Positions 2,697 to 40,182 of a stretch of 64,000 nt of DNA are shown piece by piece (positions within the stretch are counted from its first letter, which is position 1; each line of letters opens with the position of its first letter). The notes beneath the pieces were generated by a model. The model ran no database searches and had not been told where the DNA came from. It saw only the letters and a program-made list of their open reading frames with translations. Source of the stretch: Shigella phage SP18; sequence record GQ981382. The stretch is one strand, 5' to 3'. Both the position numbers and the translations under genes were made by a program.

Positions 2697-3219
2697 CTTC
2701 TTTATCTTTGGCGCTCTTATCAGACCCTGGCGCTTTAACTAAAGAGGATTCGTACTGTGTCATTTTGTCATAGATGTCCTGGATAAATGTTTCATCAGCC
2801 AGAGCCACCATATCGTCATCACGTGAATCGTATACGTTATGGACGAAGTAGCTATATTTCTTTGCCATTTCTTTACGTTCTTTTTTGATACGCTGAACGA
2901 AAGCATTGAAGCAAGCCATTGTTATGTAAGCATGTGGATTATCGTATTTTGTTTCGTCGAAGTTGTGAAGACCTTTTATTGCGGCCTCAATTCCGTCTGC
3001 TATCATTTCTTGCTTCCAGGATTGGGTATATCCGGAGAAGTTGAAACGTTTGCTAAGACCTTCGGCTATAAGCATAATCGCCAGACCAATAACATCGTTC
3101 TGGCGAATAATTTTGTTCGGGTCGGTGTTCGCATTCAGCTTCTGTTTCCACTCCGAAATAGCTTTCAAAAGCTCTTTATTATTTACATAGTTATTCTTGG
3201 TTAATTTAATTTCGTTCAT
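2662..3219 (-). CDS. 55: Late-transcription sigma factor gp55
   Basis: 185 aa; [45 protein letters not shown] and [20 protein letters not shown] match recalled T4 gp55. Confidence 0.93.
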
Positions 3220-16350: not shown

Positions 16351-16592
16351 TAGATTGCACTCCAAAAATTATGGAATCTTATAGTATTGATAGCCCAGTT
16401 AACAAACCTGCGAGTTTGCTTGGAAGTTGGTTTACATGTGTACTTGATATTGACCCGACGCCCAGTTTCCCGACAGACCGCTTCGAGATACCAGCGCCGA
16501 CCTTTATTGGGTCTTCCATATGATAAGAAGACCTTGATTTCCTGGTTATCGATAATAGGAATTGTGGTTGTCAAGATATACCTCTTCAACAA
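16350..16592 (-). CDS. Hypothetical basic protein (80 aa)
   Basis: ORF track; overlaps the 3' end of the nucleotidyltransferase ORF. Confidence 0.35.
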   Translation of the reverse strand: MLKRYILTTTIPIIDNQEIKVFLSYGRPNKGRRWYLEAVCRETGRRVNIKYTCKPTSKQTRRFVNWAINTIRFHNFWSAI

Positions 16593-17556
16593 ACTTGTCC
16601 CAGAACTTCATGTCCACCTTCTCAGGCATACCATTCTTAGCGGCCCAGATAGCATTAGTTTCGACTTCATCAACGATAGCTTCAAGTTCGGCCTGCACAT
16701 CTTTAAAAGCATGAAGCCCTTGTTTGATTTCAAGGATAAATGGTGCTGTACGTAAAGGATATTGGAGGTCGCCAGTCATATAGATTTCCTTCAACTGGTA
16801 TCCAGCCCGATAAGCATGGCTCAGAGCTTTCCAGTCGATACCTTCATTAGCTTCAGCCTTACGAGCGCGCTCGCCATATTCCGCATCGAGCTTATTCAGA
16901 GATTGCTTGAGCTCGATTAAAGACAAGGTGGTTTGGTACTTACGTCCAAGAACAGTATAGAACGTTTGAGGACCAGTTTTCTCGTGGTTATGGAATACCC
17001 ATTCACAAAACTCGTTTTCAGGGAGTCTGTGTTTGATATCTTCTACCTTAGTTCGACGTTGCTTAGTCGAACCGTCTTCTTGATAATCGACCCACTGTTC
17101 AGGAATCTGGTTAACGATTGCCAGTACACCACGTAGAGCGGCCAGTCGAGAACCTTTAACACCATATTTGGAAGCTTGCTTACGGACATACCCCAAATAG
17201 GCTTTCATGTTGGTTGTATAGAACCGCGAACGGTTATCCTGAATAAACTTCCATACATCTGGTAAATCGGATTTGACAACCAGGTCAGCCGGTGTGTGAA
17301 TCATGTCCAGGGCAACGGTTTCGCCATCGGCTGCCAGTTTAAAGAAATATTTCAGACTATAAAGTTCATGGTCAACATCATCTTTTGTATTTTTGGTAGC
17401 CGTGTTATTCGTGTTCAGGTTTGTATGGTTCATCGCGGTTCCGAGCAGGATATCTCGCGGATGAGGAACGAAGATTTCTTTAAAATCAACATCAGATTCC
17501 GGAGTACTTGTTCCATAAAGGTGGGAGCCAAAATATCCCTTCATAACAGTTCTCAT
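16546..17556 (-). CDS. Putative nucleotidyltransferase (Pol-beta-like fold)
   Basis: N-terminal GS-x10-DVD motif (YFGSHLYGTSTPESDVDF) and downstream acidic VALDMIH; start set at the MRTVMKGYF Met to avoid overlap. Confidence 0.55.
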   Translation of the reverse strand: MRTVMKGYFGSHLYGTSTPESDVDFKEIFVPHPRDILLGTAMNHTNLNTNNTATKNTKDDVDHELYSLKYFFKLAADGETVALDMIHTPADLVVKSDLPDVWKFIQDNRSRFYTTNMKAYLGYVRKQASKYGVKGSRLAALRGVLAIVNQIPEQWVDYQEDGSTKQRRTKVEDIKHRLPENEFCEWVFHNHEKTGPQTFYTVLGRKYQTTLSLIELKQSLNKLDAEYGERARKAEANEGIDWKALSHAYRAGYQLKEIYMTGDLQYPLRTAPFILEIKQGLHAFKDVQAELEAIVDEVETNAIWAAKNGMPEKVDMKFWDKFVEEVYLDNHNSYYR

Positions 17557-35558: not shown

Positions 35559-36002
35559 TTAAATTTCAAATTCTTTGCGGAAGTTGGAAGCATAAGACTG
35601 AACTGATGCTTTGTTGAATCCAAACTCACGCACAATCATATCAATAACAGCCCTACGAGCGGCACCATTAGACATATTGACAGTTTTGAACATATCATAG
35701 CATAAATCTTTGTTGCTCATACCGGAGCGTTTAGGTGTCTTACGTTCAGTTTTTGGTTCAGTCTTAGGAGTAGGTTTAACTTCTGGTTTAACCTGTCCAT
35801 CATTCAGACCTTTAAAAATTTTACCTGCCAGAGTTGCCAGTTTAGCAGCTTCGCCACGAGTGATACCAAATACTGCCGGGTTAAATGAAATACCTTCAGC
35901 TGTCAGACGTTTAAAGAACATACGTGCGGCGGATTGTGCTTCAGCTTCAGAAGAGTTGTTTAATGCCAGTTTAACATACTTAACCAGTTTTGAAGTTTTC
36001 AT
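35559..36002 (-). CDS. Hypothetical protein, paralog A with conserved C-terminal domain (...AARRAVIDMIV...VQSYASNFRK)
   Basis: Start at the MKTSKLVKY Met; C-terminal 50 aa closely similar to the 36086-36511 product. Confidence 0.55.
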   Translation of the reverse strand: MKTSKLVKYVKLALNNSSEAEAQSAARMFFKRLTAEGISFNPAVFGITRGEAAKLATLAGKIFKGLNDGQVKPEVKPTPKTEPKTERKTPKRSGMSNKDLCYDMFKTVNMSNGAARRAVIDMIVREFGFNKASVQSYASNFRKEFEI

Positions 36003-36060
36003 TTTATTATCCCGTTTGTTTATTTGGTAACTCAATATGGGATAATTATACACTATCCCA
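36003..36060 (-). promoter_or_regulatory. Early-promoter/stem-loop cassette (PeSL-like)
   Basis: ttttattatcccgtttgtttatttggtaactcaatatgggataattatacactatccc. Confidence 0.45.
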
Positions 36061-36085: not shown

Positions 36086-36511
36086 TTATTTTTGAGCTTT
36101 GCGGAAGTTGGATGCATATGACTGAACAACAGTCTTTTTGATATCATGGGTGGTAACCAGAACATCAATCAGAGCGCGACGAGCTGCATTATCATTCATA
36201 TCAATTTCTGAAAATGCCTGGAAGCAAATGTCACGAGCGTTACCAGATTTGGACTGGATTTTTTCTTCTTTAACTTCTTCAATTGGGAATTCAATCATTT
36301 CAGCTTGGATTAATTCAATGATAGATTCTTTTGACTGTTTGGTGTTTACCTTCAGTTCAGAATTAAGGGACTTGGCGATGGCAACAATCTGGGTTGAAGT
36401 CAGATGAATAAGTGCATCTTCACGAATGCAGATTTCACATACTTCGTCAGCAACCATTTTGTTGGTGATGCGGGTAACAGAGAATGCAGAGGTCAGGGTC
36501 AGGAAGTTCAT
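36086..36511 (-). CDS. Hypothetical protein, paralog B with conserved C-terminal domain (...AARRALIDVLV...VQSYASNFRK)
   Basis: Start at the MNFLTLTSAF Met; shared C-terminal domain with paralog A. Confidence 0.55.
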   Translation of the reverse strand: MNFLTLTSAFSVTRITNKMVADEVCEICIREDALIHLTSTQIVAIAKSLNSELKVNTKQSKESIIELIQAEMIEFPIEEVKEEKIQSKSGNARDICFQAFSEIDMNDNAARRALIDVLVTTHDIKKTVVQSYASNFRKAQK

Positions 36512-36600
36512 TTTATTTCTCCAAAGTTTTGTTTGATTCAGTGTGTAACTCAGTATGGAATCATTATGCACCCGGTCAATTCGGATGTACACTACTTTTT
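36512..36600 (-). promoter_or_regulatory. Early-promoter/stem-loop cassette (PeSL-like)
   Basis: ttttatttctcc...gtgtaactcagtatggaatcattatgcac...gatgtacactac. Confidence 0.45.
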
Positions 36601-36628
36601 GAAGAAAATTTCAAATTTATTCGGGGTA

Positions 36629-36659
36629 TAAAAAAAGCCCCAACCTTTCGGAAGGGGCT
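36629..36659 (-). terminator. Rho-independent terminator (minus sense) ending the tRNA/ncRNA region
   Basis: Hairpin gcccc-aacctttcggaa-ggggc; plus-strand A7 gives U-run in minus sense. Confidence 0.55.
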
Positions 36660-36665
36660 ATACCT

Positions 36666-36960
36666 TGTCGGGGTTCCACCTGCAAGGCAAGTGTTTGTAC
36701 GAAACGCCGGGATTCGAACCCGGTTATTAAGCAGTTGACGCTACTCAATATTTTTAAAAGGCCATATCTCGACCATATCCGAACGTTCCGTCAAAAACGC
36801 TACTCGGCTTACGGCAAAGATATTTCCTCGAATCGATAATTCGGTGCGCCGTTTCAGCTGTGAGATAAGGGACTTTAAGAGGTCAACTCATGTACGCCTT
36901 AAAGTCGGGTCTTATTCAGGGAACTTCAGTCCGACGACTTACCGGTAGCGACCCGGTTTC
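36666..36960 (-). ncRNA. Structured non-coding region with tRNA-like T-arm; candidate stable RNA(s) (T4 rnaC/rnaD-like position)
   Basis: About 290 nt without an ORF next to the tRNA cluster; minus-sense CCGGG-TTCGAAT-CCCGG T-arm at 36700-36724 but no canonical cloverleaf found by eye. Confidence 0.3.
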
Positions 36961-37200
36961 TCATTCAATTGTAATAGCTAATTTGACTTTAACAACCTTA
37001 TAATTGGAATCAAGGTCATTGAATTCCATAAAATTTGTTGCTAATCTGCGAGTCGGGAAACTTAGATATTTATTATGCTCAGGTGGAGCAGTTAATGCAA
37101 ACCATGGGACTTGTTTATCATTTTCATCAAACTCATCAAAGCTATAAACCAGCTCGTTGCTGGTTATATCCATAACTGCATATGATTCACTAATAACCAT
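36961..37200 (-). CDS. Hypothetical protein (79 aa)
   Basis: ORF track; between tRNA-Arg and the non-coding region. Confidence 0.4.
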   Translation of the reverse strand: MVISESYAVMDITSNELVYSFDEFDENDKQVPWFALTAPPEHNKYLSFPTRRLATNFMEFNDLDSNYKVVKVKLAITIE

Positions 37201-37214
37201 AATATCCTCAGTAA

Positions 37215-37290
37215 TTGGTCGAGACAGTAGGGATCGAACCTACGACCTAGGACTTAGAAGGTCCTTGCTCTTCCTTCTGAGCTATGCCTC
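37215..37290 (-). tRNA. tRNA-Arg (anticodon UCU)
   Basis: Minus-sense cloverleaf CGAGGCA...CTTCTAA...GTAGGTTCGATCCCTAC...TGTCTCGACCA; anticodon loop CU-UCU-AA. Confidence 0.8.
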
Positions 37291-37295
37291 GTAAT

Positions 37296-37369
37296 TTGCG
37301 GACACACATGGATTCGAACCATGGACCAATTGATTAACAGTCAACTGCTCTACCACTGAGCTATGCATC
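37296..37369 (-). tRNA. tRNA-Asn (anticodon GUU)
   Basis: Minus-sense GGATGCATAGCTCAGTGGTAGAGC...CTGTTAA...CATGGTTCGAATCCATG; anticodon GTT. Confidence 0.75.
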
Positions 37370-37373
37370 CAAA

Positions 37374-37448
37374 TTGGTGGCCCTTGCTGGTTTCGATCCA
37401 GCTACCTATCAGTTATGAGCTGACAGCTCTCCCATTGAGCTAAAGGGC
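37374..37448 (-). tRNA. tRNA with CAU anticodon (Met or lysidine-modified Ile)
   Basis: Minus-sense GGCCCTTTAGCTCAATGGGAGAGC...CTCATAA...GCTGGATCGAAACCAGC AAGGGCC ACCA; T-loop reads AUCGAAA. Confidence 0.75.
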
Positions 37449-37542
37449 CAATTCTATTATGAAAGGCTCTTTGAGGGAAGAACCTTTGGTAATAGAGGGT
37501 ACTTATTAATAATAACACATAACTCTTAAAGCATATTACTTG

Positions 37543-39494: not shown

Positions 39495-40182
<688 letters not shown>

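What the first reader, a model, noticed from the sequence alone, without database searches (positions are those of the whole stretch)
36666..37448. tRNA cluster (Arg-UCU, Asn-GUU, CAU) with an unusual T-loop and an adjacent 290-nt structured non-coding stretch
Three minus-strand tRNAs are clearly foldable. The CAU-anticodon tRNA has a T-loop reading AUCGAAA, meaning A rather than U at the position normally occupied by ribothymidine, which is uncommon for bacterial-type elongator tRNAs and could influence how it is used (initiator-like or a lysidine-modified Ile decoder). Downstream, 36666-36960 has no ORF but contains a canonical tRNA T-arm (CCGGG-TTCGAAT-CCCGG) without an obvious complete cloverleaf. 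This could be stable RNAs like T4 species 1 and 2, a degenerate or intron-containing tRNA, or a tRNA-like regulatory element. The 2H phosphoesterase 57B and the nucleotidyltransferase elsewhere in the window could relate to tRNA repair.
Basis: partly seen in the sequence, partly recalled or inferred. Interest (0 to 1): 0.5.

Follow-up and report, generated by a model that had tools for sequence, protein, structure and literature searches.

The report
Phage tRNAs plus T4 RNAs C/D
This piece of a T4-like phage genome holds three real tRNA genes followed by the phage's long-known "species 2" and "species 1" stable RNAs (rnaD, rnaC), whose function is still unknown; so the feature is already known, although comparison across phages shows that RNA C is a tRNA-shaped molecule whose two hairpin loops pair with each other.

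Summary
Three minus-strand tRNAs (Arg-UCU, Asn-GUU, CAU) are found by ARAGORN and Rfam. The CAU tRNA really has the T-loop AUCGAAA (A54). It was the only one of 139 distinct T4-like phage tRNAs checked with A54, and the loop is conserved in three related phages aligned here, from two other genera. Its acceptor stem and its E. coli relatives mark it as the lysidine-type tRNA-Ile2 (AUA decoder), not an initiator.

The 290-nt non-coding stretch is orthologous to T4 rnaD (species 2 RNA, 36843-36964) plus rnaC (species 1 RNA, 36698-36836). A conserved trailer and a terminator follow. These RNAs have long been annotated in T4. Papers from 2010 to 2025 still call their function unknown, and Rfam has no model for them.

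Twenty-three distinct rnaC sequences from at least nine phage genera support a four-way junction. It has a tRNA-like acceptor stem and T arm but no anticodon arm, and an invariant 3' tail, U-ACAA (U-CCAA in Marfavirus). Two hairpin loops, UUGACG and CGUCAA, are complementary in every sequence and co-vary once.

rnaD is a separate rod-like RNA. rnaC and rnaD can each occur without the other. My best guess at function, a non-chargeable tRNA mimic that acts as a decoy, is inference only.

Novelty: already known.

The parts
37375..37449 (-). tRNA with anticodon CAU, of the tRNA-Ile2 (lysidine, AUA-decoding) type, with the unusual T-loop AUCGAAA (A54, A60) and an encoded CCA
   Evidence: 61.4 bits. 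A54 is unique among 139 phage tRNAs. The same T-loop occurs in S16, PhAPEC2 and Shf125875, with a compensatory 7-66 change. The sampled E. coli relatives are annotated tRNA-Ile. C4-G69 and C5-G68 are TilS determinants.
37298..37370 (-). tRNA-Asn (GUU)
   Evidence: 71.8 bits.
37216..37291 (-). tRNA-Arg (UCU), an AGA decoder
   Evidence: 66 bits. AGA occurs at 7.4 per 1000 codons in minus-strand ORFs of the window.
36961..37200 (-). 79-aa ORF of unknown function lying between tRNA-Arg and rnaD. Its stop codon overlaps the start of rnaD. T4 and JS10 lack it; there rnaD directly follows tRNA-Arg.
   Evidence: Full-length match to phrog_33509, E 5e-57. T4 and JS10 layouts.
36843..36964 (-). rnaD homologue (T4 species 2 RNA). 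It is a rod-like fold. Hairpin hp1 is at 36941-36957 (ACCGG-GUCGCUA-CCGGU). A long-range helix pairs GUCGUCG (36932-36938) with CGGCGCAC (36844-36851). Inner helices follow, capped by a lineage-variable apical hairpin.
   Evidence: Alignment to T4 rnaD. RNAalifold and pair counts on 13 sequences give 97.8% of cells paired against 31-53% for slid controls, with 6 pairs changed on both sides.
36837..36842 (-). Spacer GAAUUA between rnaD and rnaC; the A/U-rich leader 5' of the rnaC acceptor stem
36698..36836 (-). rnaC homologue (T4 species 1 RNA). It is a four-way junction. The acceptor-like stem pairs 36829-36835 with 36700-36706. AGG/CCU plus a long hairpin ends in loop UUGACG (36789-36794). 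Hairpin H3 (36725-36750) carries loop CGUCAA (36735-36740). The T arm is at 36707-36723. The 3' tail is U-ACAA.
   Evidence: About 98% identical to T4 rnaC. MFE -50.1 kcal/mol, z -4.06. Pair counts on 23 sequences give 92% of cells paired against 32-44% for slid controls, with 16 pairs changed on both sides. An independent RNAalifold run on 9 divergent sequences gives the same fold.
36661..36697 (-). Conserved 3' trailer (CAAACACUUGCCUUGCAGGUGGAACCCCGACAAGGUA). It is near-identical in T4 and JS10, and in JS10 it is retained although rnaC is deleted.
36629..36659 (-). Intrinsic-terminator-like hairpin AGCCCC..GGGGCU followed by U7; the end of the tRNA operon
   Evidence: Sequence and fold. The consensus scanner missed it because the stem is interrupted. 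T4 transcription is reported to terminate after the species I gene (PMC2330249).

Best explanation
This is the tRNA operon of a T4-like (Gaprivervirus-type) coliphage.

Shown here:
- The three tRNAs are genuine. They supply decoders for AUA (tRNA-Ile2 type, CAU anticodon presumably converted to lysidine by host TilS), AAY (Asn) and AGA (Arg).
- The 290-nt 'non-coding stretch' is the orthologue pair of T4 rnaD (species 2 RNA) and rnaC (species 1 RNA), followed by a conserved trailer and a terminator.

Inferred from the anatomy and from the T4 literature: both RNAs are transcribed as part of the tRNA-operon precursor and released by the same enzymes that mature the tRNAs. RNase P would cut at the tRNA-like acceptor stem of rnaC, and 3' exonucleases would trim back to the closing helices.

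Shown by comparison: RNA C keeps the 'top half' of a tRNA, a 7-bp acceptor-like stem stacked on a canonical T arm. It has no anticodon arm. Its 3' tail is U-ACAA rather than N-CCA. Its two remaining hairpins carry loops that are perfectly complementary over 6 bp (UUGACG and CGUCAA).

Inferred, and the weakest step: RNA C is a non-chargeable tRNA mimic that binds and occupies a factor recognising the acceptor/T-arm end or elbow of tRNAs. That factor could be a host tRNA-targeting defence toxin or a tRNA-processing enzyme. RNA D is an independent rod-shaped accessory RNA. Both would be conditionally useful, host-specific accessories rather than essential genes.

Confidence by step: identity about 0.95, processing route about 0.75, decoy function about 0.3. 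The overall figure of 0.55 weighs these together.
For: Identity:
- T4 annotates rnaD and rnaC immediately after tRNA-Arg.
- The window aligns to them. rnaC is about 98% identical, and rnaD matches in its core with a replaced apical hairpin.
- About 800 T4-like records hold the region, and some annotate rnaC and rnaD there.

Processing:
- In Karamvirus, Gelderlandvirus and Kagamiyamavirus, rnaC sits inside the tRNA array, 6 nt after a tRNA's CCA and 5-9 nt before the next tRNA.
- RNAC and RNAD were detected by Northern blot in T4 infection (PMC9697503).

Structure:
- Single-sequence folding gives z -4.06.
- On 23 distinct sequences, 92% of cells pair against 32-44% for slid controls, and 16 pairs change on both sides. 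These include acceptor pair 3-70 (A-U to G-C) and one T-stem pair (G-C to U-A).
- The same fold is predicted independently for the divergent subfamily.
- The loop-loop pairing holds in 23 of 23 sequences. The only substitutions in either loop are complementary: UUGGCG with CGCCAA in the Marfavirus clade.

Selection and function:
- rnaC is near-invariant while its neighbours diverge.
- The adaptive SNP reported in all evolved lines of phage BW-1 (PMC12685909) maps, in my alignment, to an A-to-G change that repairs a C.A mismatch in the rnaD apical hairpin.

Restriction to phages: no match in 185,579 bacterial and archaeal genomes.
Against: No experiment or database gives a function. The 2010, 2022 and 2025 papers all say it is unknown.

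The decoy idea rests only on shape. No binding partner is known.

rnaC is precisely deleted in JS10, so it is dispensable at least in that lineage.

The acceptor-like stem has two invariant U.U mismatches, which is untypical of a tRNA.

One copy, in phage CIP9, has lost the canonical T-loop.

The loop-loop covariation is one evolutionary event in one clade. My rough estimate is about 3% by chance.

The T4 GenBank 3' end (..GUA) would leave a shorter tail than the conserved UACAA.

rnaD alone does not fold better than shuffled sequence (z -0.93).
Confidence: 0.55

Rival explanations
1. rnaC and rnaD act in cis. They would be processing, stability or termination modules of the tRNA operon: entry sites for RNase P or RNase E, or 3' protection of the precursor. 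Their accumulation as stable RNAs would then be a by-product.
For: They are always found inside or at the end of tRNA operons. In T4-type phages they sit just upstream of the terminator. rnaC offers an RNase P-type acceptor/T-arm substrate.
Against: The position varies: rnaC lies mid-array in Karamvirus, at the operon end in T4, and after a protein gene in Kanagawavirus. rnaC and rnaD occur independently. JS10 keeps its tRNAs, rnaD and the trailer without rnaC. A processing signal does not explain the conserved, co-varying loop-loop pairing or the invariant single-stranded motifs (GGCC, AAAAU, UACAA).
Confidence: 0.15
2. rnaC is a decayed or aberrant tRNA gene (class II, long variable arm, or intron-containing). 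It would be an evolutionary relic with no function of its own.
For: tRNA finders sometimes call part of it a tRNA. PG7 annotates a 95-nt 'tRNA-Met', and G4507 has a 'tRNA-Lys' over the match. There is a weak tRNA-Sec-like match at 16.6 bits. In T4-type sequences an internal CGGAACG could pair perfectly with the 3' acceptor strand.
Against: The RNA is about 98% conserved between T4 and the window while its flanks diverge. Compensatory changes occur in four helices and in the loop-loop pairing across at least nine genera. No anticodon stem exists. The internal alternative acceptor is broken (A-C) in EcS1-type sequences and absent from Kanagawa-type sequences. Neither RF00005 nor ARAGORN calls it in the window.
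Confidence: 0.08
3. The two complementary loops pair between molecules rather than within one. RNA C would then form closed dimers or rings 'hand in hand', as phi29 pRNA does, and act as a multimeric scaffold.
For: The two loops are exactly complementary over 6 nt in every sequence and show one covariation. The two stems differ greatly in length (about 21 bp against 10 bp), and H3 is tied to the T arm by only 2 nt. That makes an intramolecular kiss geometrically demanding; this is my reasoning from the fold.
Against: There is no evidence of multimers. From my own knowledge, T4 DNA packaging works in vitro without RNA. The 13-16-nt single-stranded linker could allow the intramolecular contact. 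Covariation cannot distinguish pairing in cis from pairing in trans.
Confidence: 0.07
4. The stretch encodes small proteins, as several GenBank records annotate ('hypothetical protein' over the region).
For: Mechanical ORFs of 34-43 aa exist. Many records place CDS features there, for example F48 vBKpnF48_274.
Against: The substitutions are RNA-type compensatory pairs. Indels occur in the linker and in hairpins. T4 annotates RNAs here and a Northern blot detects them. No ORF spans 36666-36960.
Confidence: 0.02

Closest known systems
Bacteriophage T4 rnaC (species 1 RNA, 139 nt) and rnaD (species 2 RNA, 119 nt), NC_000866 70908-71171
   Same: The sequence matches: rnaC is about 98% identical and the rnaD core is conserved. 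The order (rnaD then rnaC), the strand, the position at the 3' end of the tRNA operon, the conserved trailer and the terminator are all the same.
   Different: In the window a 79-aa ORF separates tRNA-Arg from rnaD, whereas in T4 rnaD starts 2 nt after tRNA-Arg. The tRNA set is Ile2/Asn/Arg instead of T4's eight. The apical hairpin of rnaD has a different sequence; the window's version is the JS10-type hairpin (97% identical).
tRNA-like domains of tmRNA and viral tRNA-like structures (tRNA 'top-half' mimics)
   Same: A 7-bp acceptor-type stem is contiguous with a canonical T arm (UUCGAAU). There is no anticodon arm. The RNA is embedded among RNase P substrates.
   Different: There is no G3.U70, no encoded CCA (U-ACAA in most, U-CCAA only in Marfavirus), no tag reading frame and no pseudoknot series. 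The RNA is 139 nt. ARAGORN finds no tmRNA. There are two invariant U.U mismatches in the stem.
phi29 pRNA (phage RNA that multimerises through two complementary loops)
   Same: Both are small phage-encoded structured RNAs with two hairpin loops complementary to each other. The comparison is from my own knowledge of pRNA.
   Different: There is no sequence or fold homology. Whether the loops of RNA C pair in cis or in trans is unknown. T4 packaging has no known RNA requirement.
E. coli tRNA-Ile2 (ileX/ileY) and the prophage-borne CAU tRNAs annotated tRNA-Ile
   Same: The window's CAU tRNA shares the CAU anticodon, the GGCCC../..GGGCC acceptor stem with C4-G69 and C5-G68, and 79-84% identity to genes annotated tRNA-Ile.
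   Different: The T-loop is AUCGAAA (A54, A60) instead of UUCAAGU. The anticodon stem also differs.
Eukaryotic cytoplasmic initiator tRNA-Met T-loop (A54, A60)
   Same: The T-loop sequence AUCGAAA is identical. This is a resemblance recalled from my own knowledge of the yeast initiator tRNA.
   Different: The phage tRNA has none of the bacterial initiator marks: it has G1-C72, C11-G24 and U12-A23, and no GGG/CCC in the anticodon stem. The resemblance is probably convergent or incidental.

Membership tests
T4 rnaC (species 1 RNA) | Full-length sequence homology to T4 rnaC | tested here: met
   98% identity over 156 nt including flanks, shown base by base.
T4 rnaC (species 1 RNA) | Location in the tRNA operon, downstream of rnaD and upstream of the operon terminator | tested here: met
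T4 rnaC (species 1 RNA) | Accumulates as a discrete stable RNA of about 140 nt in infected cells | not testable with these tools
   Shown for T4 itself by Northern blot (PMC9697503), not for this phage.
T4 rnaD (species 2 RNA) | Sequence homology to T4 rnaD, with conserved 5' and 3' cores | tested here: met
   77% identity to T4 and 97% to JS10. Both cores are invariant, and the apical hairpin is replaced but still pairs.
tRNA (Rfam RF00005), applied to 36698-36964 | Complete cloverleaf with an anticodon arm that scores above the gathering threshold | tested here: not met
   No RF00005 hit there at the gathering score. The relaxed scan gives only tRNA-Sec at 16.6 bits, E 2.4. ARAGORN finds nothing. 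The consensus fold has no anticodon stem.
tmRNA | tRNA-like domain with G3.U70 and a CCA end, plus a tag-peptide reading frame | tested here: not met
   ARAGORN, which detects tmRNA, reports none. Pair 3-70 is A-U or G-C and the tail is UACAA.
tRNA-Ile2 (lysidine type, anticodon CAU) | CAU anticodon with acceptor pairs C4-G69 and C5-G68, which E. coli TilS requires | tested here: met
   Sequence GGCCCUU../..AAGGGCC. The criterion is taken from PMC1635315.
tRNA-Ile2 (lysidine type, anticodon CAU) | Closest cellular relatives are tRNA-Ile(CAU) genes rather than tRNA-Met genes | tested here: met
   4467 E. coli records match. All 12 rows sampled evenly down the ranking are annotated tRNA-Ile.
tRNA-Ile2 (lysidine type, anticodon CAU) | C34 is actually converted to lysidine and the tRNA is charged with isoleucine | not testable with these tools
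   Needs mass spectrometry or TilS and IleRS assays.
Bacterial initiator tRNA-fMet | 1-72 mismatch, A11-U24 and G12-C23, and GGG/CCC at 29-31/39-41 | tested here: not met
   The window tRNA has G1-C72, C11-G24, U12-A23 and the anticodon stem GUCAG/CUGAU. The D-stem and anticodon-stem criteria are from PMC1635315. The 1-72 mismatch criterion is from my own knowledge.

The most novel reading that the evidence does not exclude
RNA C (T4 species 1 RNA) is a purpose-built dead-end tRNA mimic. In this reading it works as an RNA-based counter-defence or regulatory decoy against a host factor that attacks or processes the acceptor end or elbow of tRNAs. The hypervariable linker, which reads like different anticodon loops in different lineages (CUUUUAA, UUCAUAA, CUUUGAA and others), may tune which tRNA is imitated.
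Probability: 0.15. Interest if true: 0.75.

Novelty: already known. Interest (0 to 1): 0.3.

Why it matters
As an annotation result it is ordinary. The region is the T4-type tRNA operon with rnaD and rnaC, both long annotated in T4.

It matters in three smaller ways.

1. These two abundant phage RNAs still have no known function and no Rfam family. As a result they are routinely annotated as 'hypothetical protein' or as odd tRNAs, for example a 95-nt 'tRNA-Met' in PG7 and a 'tRNA-Lys' in G4507.

2. The comparative model obtained here gives concrete, mutable targets for finally testing what RNA C does. The model comprises a tRNA top half, an ACA tail and a co-varying loop-loop pairing. The family is spread over at least nine genera and is absent from bacterial genomes.

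3. A published convergent adaptive SNP in a T4-like phage maps to a change that repairs a stem in rnaD. That hints that these RNAs affect host-specific fitness.

The conserved A54 T-loop in a phage tRNA-Ile2 is a small, unexplained curiosity.

Tried and rejected
- Rfam, at gathering score on the whole window and relaxed on 36500-37250, gave nothing credible for the 290-nt stretch. PrrF on the plus strand, snoRNAs, NsiR1 and tRNA-Sec are chance or terminator matches.
- tmRNA, SRP 4.5S and 6S readings have no model hits and none of the defining motifs.
- Two-piece tRNA: the rnaD 5' end GAAACCGGG looked complementary to the rnaC 3' end. I rejected this because the two RNAs occur independently (JS10 has rnaD only; Karam-, Kanagawa- and Gelderland-type phages have rnaC only) and the complementarity is not maintained in F48.
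- Intron-containing or class II tRNA, using the internal CGGAACG as the acceptor strand: broken in EcS1-type sequences and absent from Kanagawa-type sequences.
- My first rnaD model is not conserved. It had an outer helix UGAG/CUCA and a hairpin AGUC-GUCG-GACU. RNAalifold and the pair counts favour the long-range helix GUCGUCG/CGGCGCAC instead.
- A search for more distant family members with a relaxed gapped pattern in IMG/VR found only known members plus one chance hit in a coding region (L077).
- In the metagenome scan, 35 of 45 hits lacked all three rnaC signature motifs and were set aside as unrelated (probably ordinary tRNA T arms; not examined further).
- Literature searches for a reported function of RNAC or RNAD, or for phage tRNA-like decoys, found none.
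- The consensus terminator scan missed the real terminator because its stem is interrupted. Its only hit is the opposite strand of rnaD hairpin hp1.
Full report
**1. The observation**

ARAGORN reports exactly three tRNA genes in the 64-kb window, all on the minus strand: tRNA-Arg(tct) at 37216-37291, tRNA-Asn(gtt) at 37298-37370 and a CAT-anticodon tRNA at 37375-37449. Rfam's tRNA model scores them 66, 71.8 and 61.4 bits against a gathering score of 29, and nothing else in the window reaches any Rfam gathering score.

The sequence shows the T arm of the CAU tRNA as GCUGG-AUCGAAA-CCAGC, so position 54 is A and position 60 is A.

Downstream, 36666-36960 contains only mechanical ORFs of 43 aa or fewer. 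It does contain CCGGG-TTCGAAT-CCCGG, at 36707-36723.

**2. The CAU tRNA**

The A54 loop is not a sequencing accident.
- The same tRNA, with the same AUCGAAA loop, occurs in Salmonella phage S16 (Gelderlandvirus) and in PhAPEC2 and Shf125875 (Mosigvirus). The BLAST match to VR7 and VR26 is 100% identical across the tRNA.
- PhAPEC2 carries a compensatory change in acceptor pair 7-66 (U-A to G-C), as expected for a tRNA under selection.
- Among 139 distinct tRNAs with a parseable T arm that ARAGORN finds in the T4-like loci I fetched, 138 have T54 and only this one has A54. The feature really is rare.

On identity, the acceptor stem is GGCCCUU/AAGGGCC, which gives C4-G69 and C5-G68. E. coli TilS requires these pairs in tRNA-Ile(CAU). 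The D-stem pairs are C11-G24 and U12-A23, not the A11-U24 and G12-C23 that mark initiators. The anticodon stem is GUCAG/CUGAU, with no GGG/CCC. These criteria come from PMC1635315.

A BLAST against 5,426 complete E. coli genomes finds 4,467 matching records. All 12 rows sampled evenly down the ranking are annotated tRNA-Ile. The tRNA is therefore of the lysidine-dependent, AUA-decoding Ile2 type and not initiator-like.

In minus-strand ORFs of the window, AUA occurs at 8.3 and AGA at 7.4 per 1000 codons, and the window is 39.9% G+C. From memory, both codons are rare in E. coli, which fits the usual codon-supplement role for phage tRNAs.

Why A54 and A60 are kept is unexplained. The loop sequence equals that of eukaryotic initiator tRNAs (my recollection), but no bacterial initiator feature accompanies it.

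**3. The 290-nt stretch is T4 rnaD plus rnaC**

A BLAST of 36600-37000 against 50,697 phage records hits 803 records, nearly all T4-like phages of enterobacteria. The best matches are Escherichia phages P479, 212 and DCP80, at 99.8%.

The T4 reference genome annotates two misc_RNA features immediately after tRNA-Arg: rnaD ('species 2 RNA', 71053-71171) and rnaC ('species 1 RNA', 70908-71046). The window aligns to them base for base. rnaC is about 98% identical. rnaD is conserved in its 5' and 3' parts, with a replaced central hairpin: 77% identity to T4 and 97% to phage JS10.

By homology with the T4 ends, rnaD occupies 36843-36964 and rnaC occupies 36698-36836. A 37-nt trailer (36661-36697) is near-identical in T4 and JS10. 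A hairpin followed by U7 (36629-36659) is the likely operon terminator.

In T4 the tRNA cluster is reported to be transcribed as one primary transcript of about 1.75 kb. That transcript is the precursor of the eight tRNAs and of species I and II RNAs, and it ends after the species I gene (PMC2330249).

Reviews and recent papers state that the roles of RNAC and RNAD are unknown:
- PMC3014915, 2010.
- PMC9697503, 2022, which also confirms them by Northern blot.
- PMC12685909, 2025.

The finding is therefore a known feature with an unknown function.

**4. Distribution**

rnaC-like sequences occur in Tequatrovirus, Mosigvirus, Gaprivervirus, Karamvirus, Kanagawavirus, Gelderlandvirus, Kagamiyamavirus, Moonvirus and Marfavirus.

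In Karam-, Gelderland- and Kagamiyama-type phages, rnaC lies inside the tRNA array, a few nucleotides after one tRNA and before the next, and there is no rnaD.

In JS10 (Dhakavirus) the reverse holds. rnaD follows tRNA-Arg, and rnaC is precisely deleted while the trailer is kept.

Marfavirus F48 has a divergent rnaD about 400 nt upstream of its rnaC.

The two RNAs are therefore independent modules.

Pattern scans gave these results:
- IMG/VR: 14 loci.
- Metagenomes: 45 loci. Ten of them carry all three rnaC signature motifs and 35 carry none.
- 185,579 bacterial and archaeal genomes: no match.
- A relaxed gapped pattern in IMG/VR: only one more member, plus one chance hit.

**5. Structure of RNA C**

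The single-sequence MFE of the window copy is -50.1 kcal/mol. Shuffled sequences average -34.5, giving z = -4.06. The fold is a four-way junction with four arms:
- An acceptor-like stem, CGAUUCG/CGUUUCG.
- A three-pair AGG/CCU stem continuing into a long irregular hairpin.
- A 10-bp hairpin, H3.
- A canonical T arm.

I aligned 23 distinct sequences and counted pairs for the helices that align in register.
- 92.0% of cells form standard pairs, against 32-44% when the 3' partners are slid by 1-3 columns.
- 16 of 33 pairs show changes on both sides.
- The covariation score is 0.383, against 0.03-0.11 for the slid controls.
- Acceptor pair 3-70 switches between A-U (9 sequences) and G-C (14 sequences).
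- One T-stem pair switches between G-C (10) and U-A (12).
- Nine of the ten H3 pairs co-vary.
- Two central acceptor positions are invariant U.U mismatches.

RNAalifold, run separately on the nine most divergent (Kanagawa/Marfa-type) sequences, predicts the same junction although their long hairpin has a different sequence. It finds 44 pairs, 13 with compensatory changes.

**6. The loop-loop pairing**

The terminal loop of the long hairpin is UUGACG and the loop of H3 is CGUCAA. They are perfect complements over all six positions in 23 of 23 sequences.

The only substitutions seen in either loop anywhere in the family occur together in the Marfavirus clade and are complementary: UUGGCG with CGCCAA (A-U in 19 sequences, G-C in 4). 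This is one evolutionary event. Two of the 12 otherwise invariant loop positions changed on that branch. The chance that they are pairing partners with the complementary bases is roughly 1/11 times 1/3, or about 3%. This is my estimate, not a tool result.

Fully paired 6-nt kissing loops have structural precedent (my knowledge of the TAR-TAR* complex).

Covariation cannot say whether the pairing is within one molecule or between molecules.

**7. Other features of RNA C**

- The 3' tail after the acceptor stem is invariant U-ACAA in all clades except Marfavirus, where it is U-CCAA. It looks like a tRNA N-CCA end with C74 replaced by A.
- Invariant single-stranded motifs (AGGA, GGCC, AAAAU) flank a short hypervariable linker. 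In T4-type phages the linker reads CUUUUAA and in PG7 it reads UUCAUAA. This is evidently why tRNA finders have labelled homologues 'tRNA-Lys' (G4507) or a 95-nt 'tRNA-Met' (PG7).
- There is no stem around this linker, so it is not an anticodon arm.

**8. Structure of RNA D**

RNAalifold on 13 sequences and the pair counts support a rod. In the pair counts, 97.8% of cells are paired against 31-53% for slid controls, and 6 pairs change on both sides. The rod has these parts:
- A 5' hairpin, RCCGG-GUCGCUA-CCGGY, whose closing pair switches between A-U and G-C.
- A long-range helix, GUCGUCG/CGGCGCAC, that ties the body to the 3' end. It is invariant, so it is untested by covariation.
- Inner helices, with an A-U to U-A switch and a co-varying GUAAG/CUUAC helix.
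- A lineage-specific apical hairpin.

The single-sequence fold is not more stable than shuffled sequence (z -0.93).

One piece of external evidence bears on function. In the evolution experiment with phage BW-1, the single SNP shared by all lines adapted to host ECOR34 lies in rnaD (PMC12685909). Mapping record position 164264 onto the RNA strand (L075 position 673) shows an A-to-G change. It converts CACAG-UUUUA-CUAUG into ..CUGUG. That repairs a C.A mismatch in the apical hairpin and restores the sequence found in related phages. The mapping and this interpretation are mine.

**9. How it most likely works**

Shown:
- Identity with rnaD and rnaC.
- Membership of the tRNA operon.
- Conserved, co-varying folds.
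- A tRNA-like acceptor/T-arm in RNA C without an anticodon arm and, in most lineages, without CCA.

Inferred with fair confidence: both RNAs are released from the operon precursor by the tRNA-maturation machinery. RNase P would cut at the rnaC acceptor stem, and exonucleases would trim back to the closing helices. Their compact folds then keep them stable.

Inferred with low confidence (about 0.3): RNA C acts in trans as a non-chargeable tRNA mimic. It would occupy a factor that recognises the acceptor end or elbow of tRNAs, such as a host tRNA-directed toxin or a processing or modification enzyme. RNA D would be a separate accessory RNA with host-dependent benefit.

I weigh them in the rival section. 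The evidence excludes none of the first three.

**10.

The '57B' ORF (39495-39950) matches Pfam Acb1, the anti-CBASS protein, at E 1e-59. PHROGs labels the same family 'RNA ligase'. It is a 2H phosphodiesterase directed at cyclic-nucleotide immune signals, so a tRNA-repair role is not supported.

The nucleotidyltransferase is a 336-aa RlaP-family protein at 16546-17556 ('RNA repair pathway DNA polymerase beta family', E 1e-10). It lies 20 kb away. I did not test whether it acts on tRNA-like 3' ends.

**11. Verdict**

The feature is already known as T4 species 1 and 2 RNAs, so novelty is low.

What is left is a half-century-old open question about function, now with a sharper structural hypothesis, and a rare, conserved A54 T-loop in a phage tRNA-Ile2.

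Noticed in passing
PHROGs labels the same family 'RNA ligase'. It is an immune-signal nuclease, not a tRNA-repair enzyme.
   Followed up: partly
window 16546-17556 (-): A 336-aa protein matches Pfam RlaP (RNA-repair-pathway Pol-beta nucleotidyltransferase, E 1.4e-10). It lies 20 kb from the tRNAs. I did not examine whether it acts on tRNA or RNA C 3' ends.
   Followed up: no
window 35559-36053 (-) and 36086-36592 (-): Two adjacent genes just downstream of the terminator share a C-terminal domain (..AARRA.ID..V....K..VQSYASNFRK..). Each cross-matches the other's PHROG family (phrog_18416 and phrog_9997). They are tandem paralogues of unknown function.
   Followed up: partly
L002 2554-2648 (Enterobacter phage PG7); H90 (phage G4507); L015 3016-3153 (Klebsiella phage F48): rnaC homologues are mis-annotated in public records: as a 95-nt 'tRNA-Met' in PG7, as 'tRNA-Lys' in G4507, and as hypothetical-protein CDS in F48 and many others. 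There is no Rfam family to prevent this.
   Followed up: partly
L004 2501-2650 (Escherichia phage JS10): rnaC is precisely excised in this Dhakavirus. rnaD runs straight into the conserved trailer ACACUUGCC..GACAAGG, so the trailer is maintained independently of rnaC.
   Followed up: partly
window 36661-36697 (-): The 37-nt trailer between rnaC and the terminator is almost identical in T4, JS10 and the window, while the sequence beyond it diverges. It may be a third small conserved element or a processing site.
   Followed up: no
L018 about 2918-3068 (Enterobacter phage CIP9): This rnaC copy has a non-canonical T-loop (UGCAUGC instead of UUCGAAU). In the same copy the invariant GGCC motif has become CGCC. 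This could be decay of the copy or a hint of a T-loop/GG tertiary contact.
   Followed up: no
L075 position 673 (Escherichia phage BW-1, record position 164264): The convergent adaptive SNP reported in PMC12685909 maps to an A-to-G change on the RNA strand. The change repairs a C.A mismatch in the apical hairpin of rnaD (CACAG-UUUUA-CUAUG becomes CUGUG).
   Followed up: yes
rnaC alignment A3 columns 81-95; window about 36751-36764 (-): The only hypervariable part of rnaC is a short linker between the invariant GGCC and AAAAU motifs. In different lineages it reads like different anticodon loops: CUUUUAA, UUCAUAA, CUUUGAA, CUUACAA, CUUAUAA and CUCAUAA. This may be mere A/U-rich drift, or it may be meaningful.
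   Followed up: partly
window 36968-36995 (-): A sigma-70-like promoter match (TTGTTA-16 nt-TACAAT, 9 of 12) lies inside the 3' end of the 79-aa ORF, just upstream of rnaD. It could give rnaD and rnaC their own transcript in phages where an ORF separates them from the tRNAs. It is only a consensus match.
   Followed up: no
L003 1808-1883 (Proteus phage ABTNLPp2): One CAU tRNA of this phage is, as far as I recall the sequence, identical to E. coli tRNA-Ile2 (ileX). That suggests recent capture of a host-type gene.
   Followed up: no
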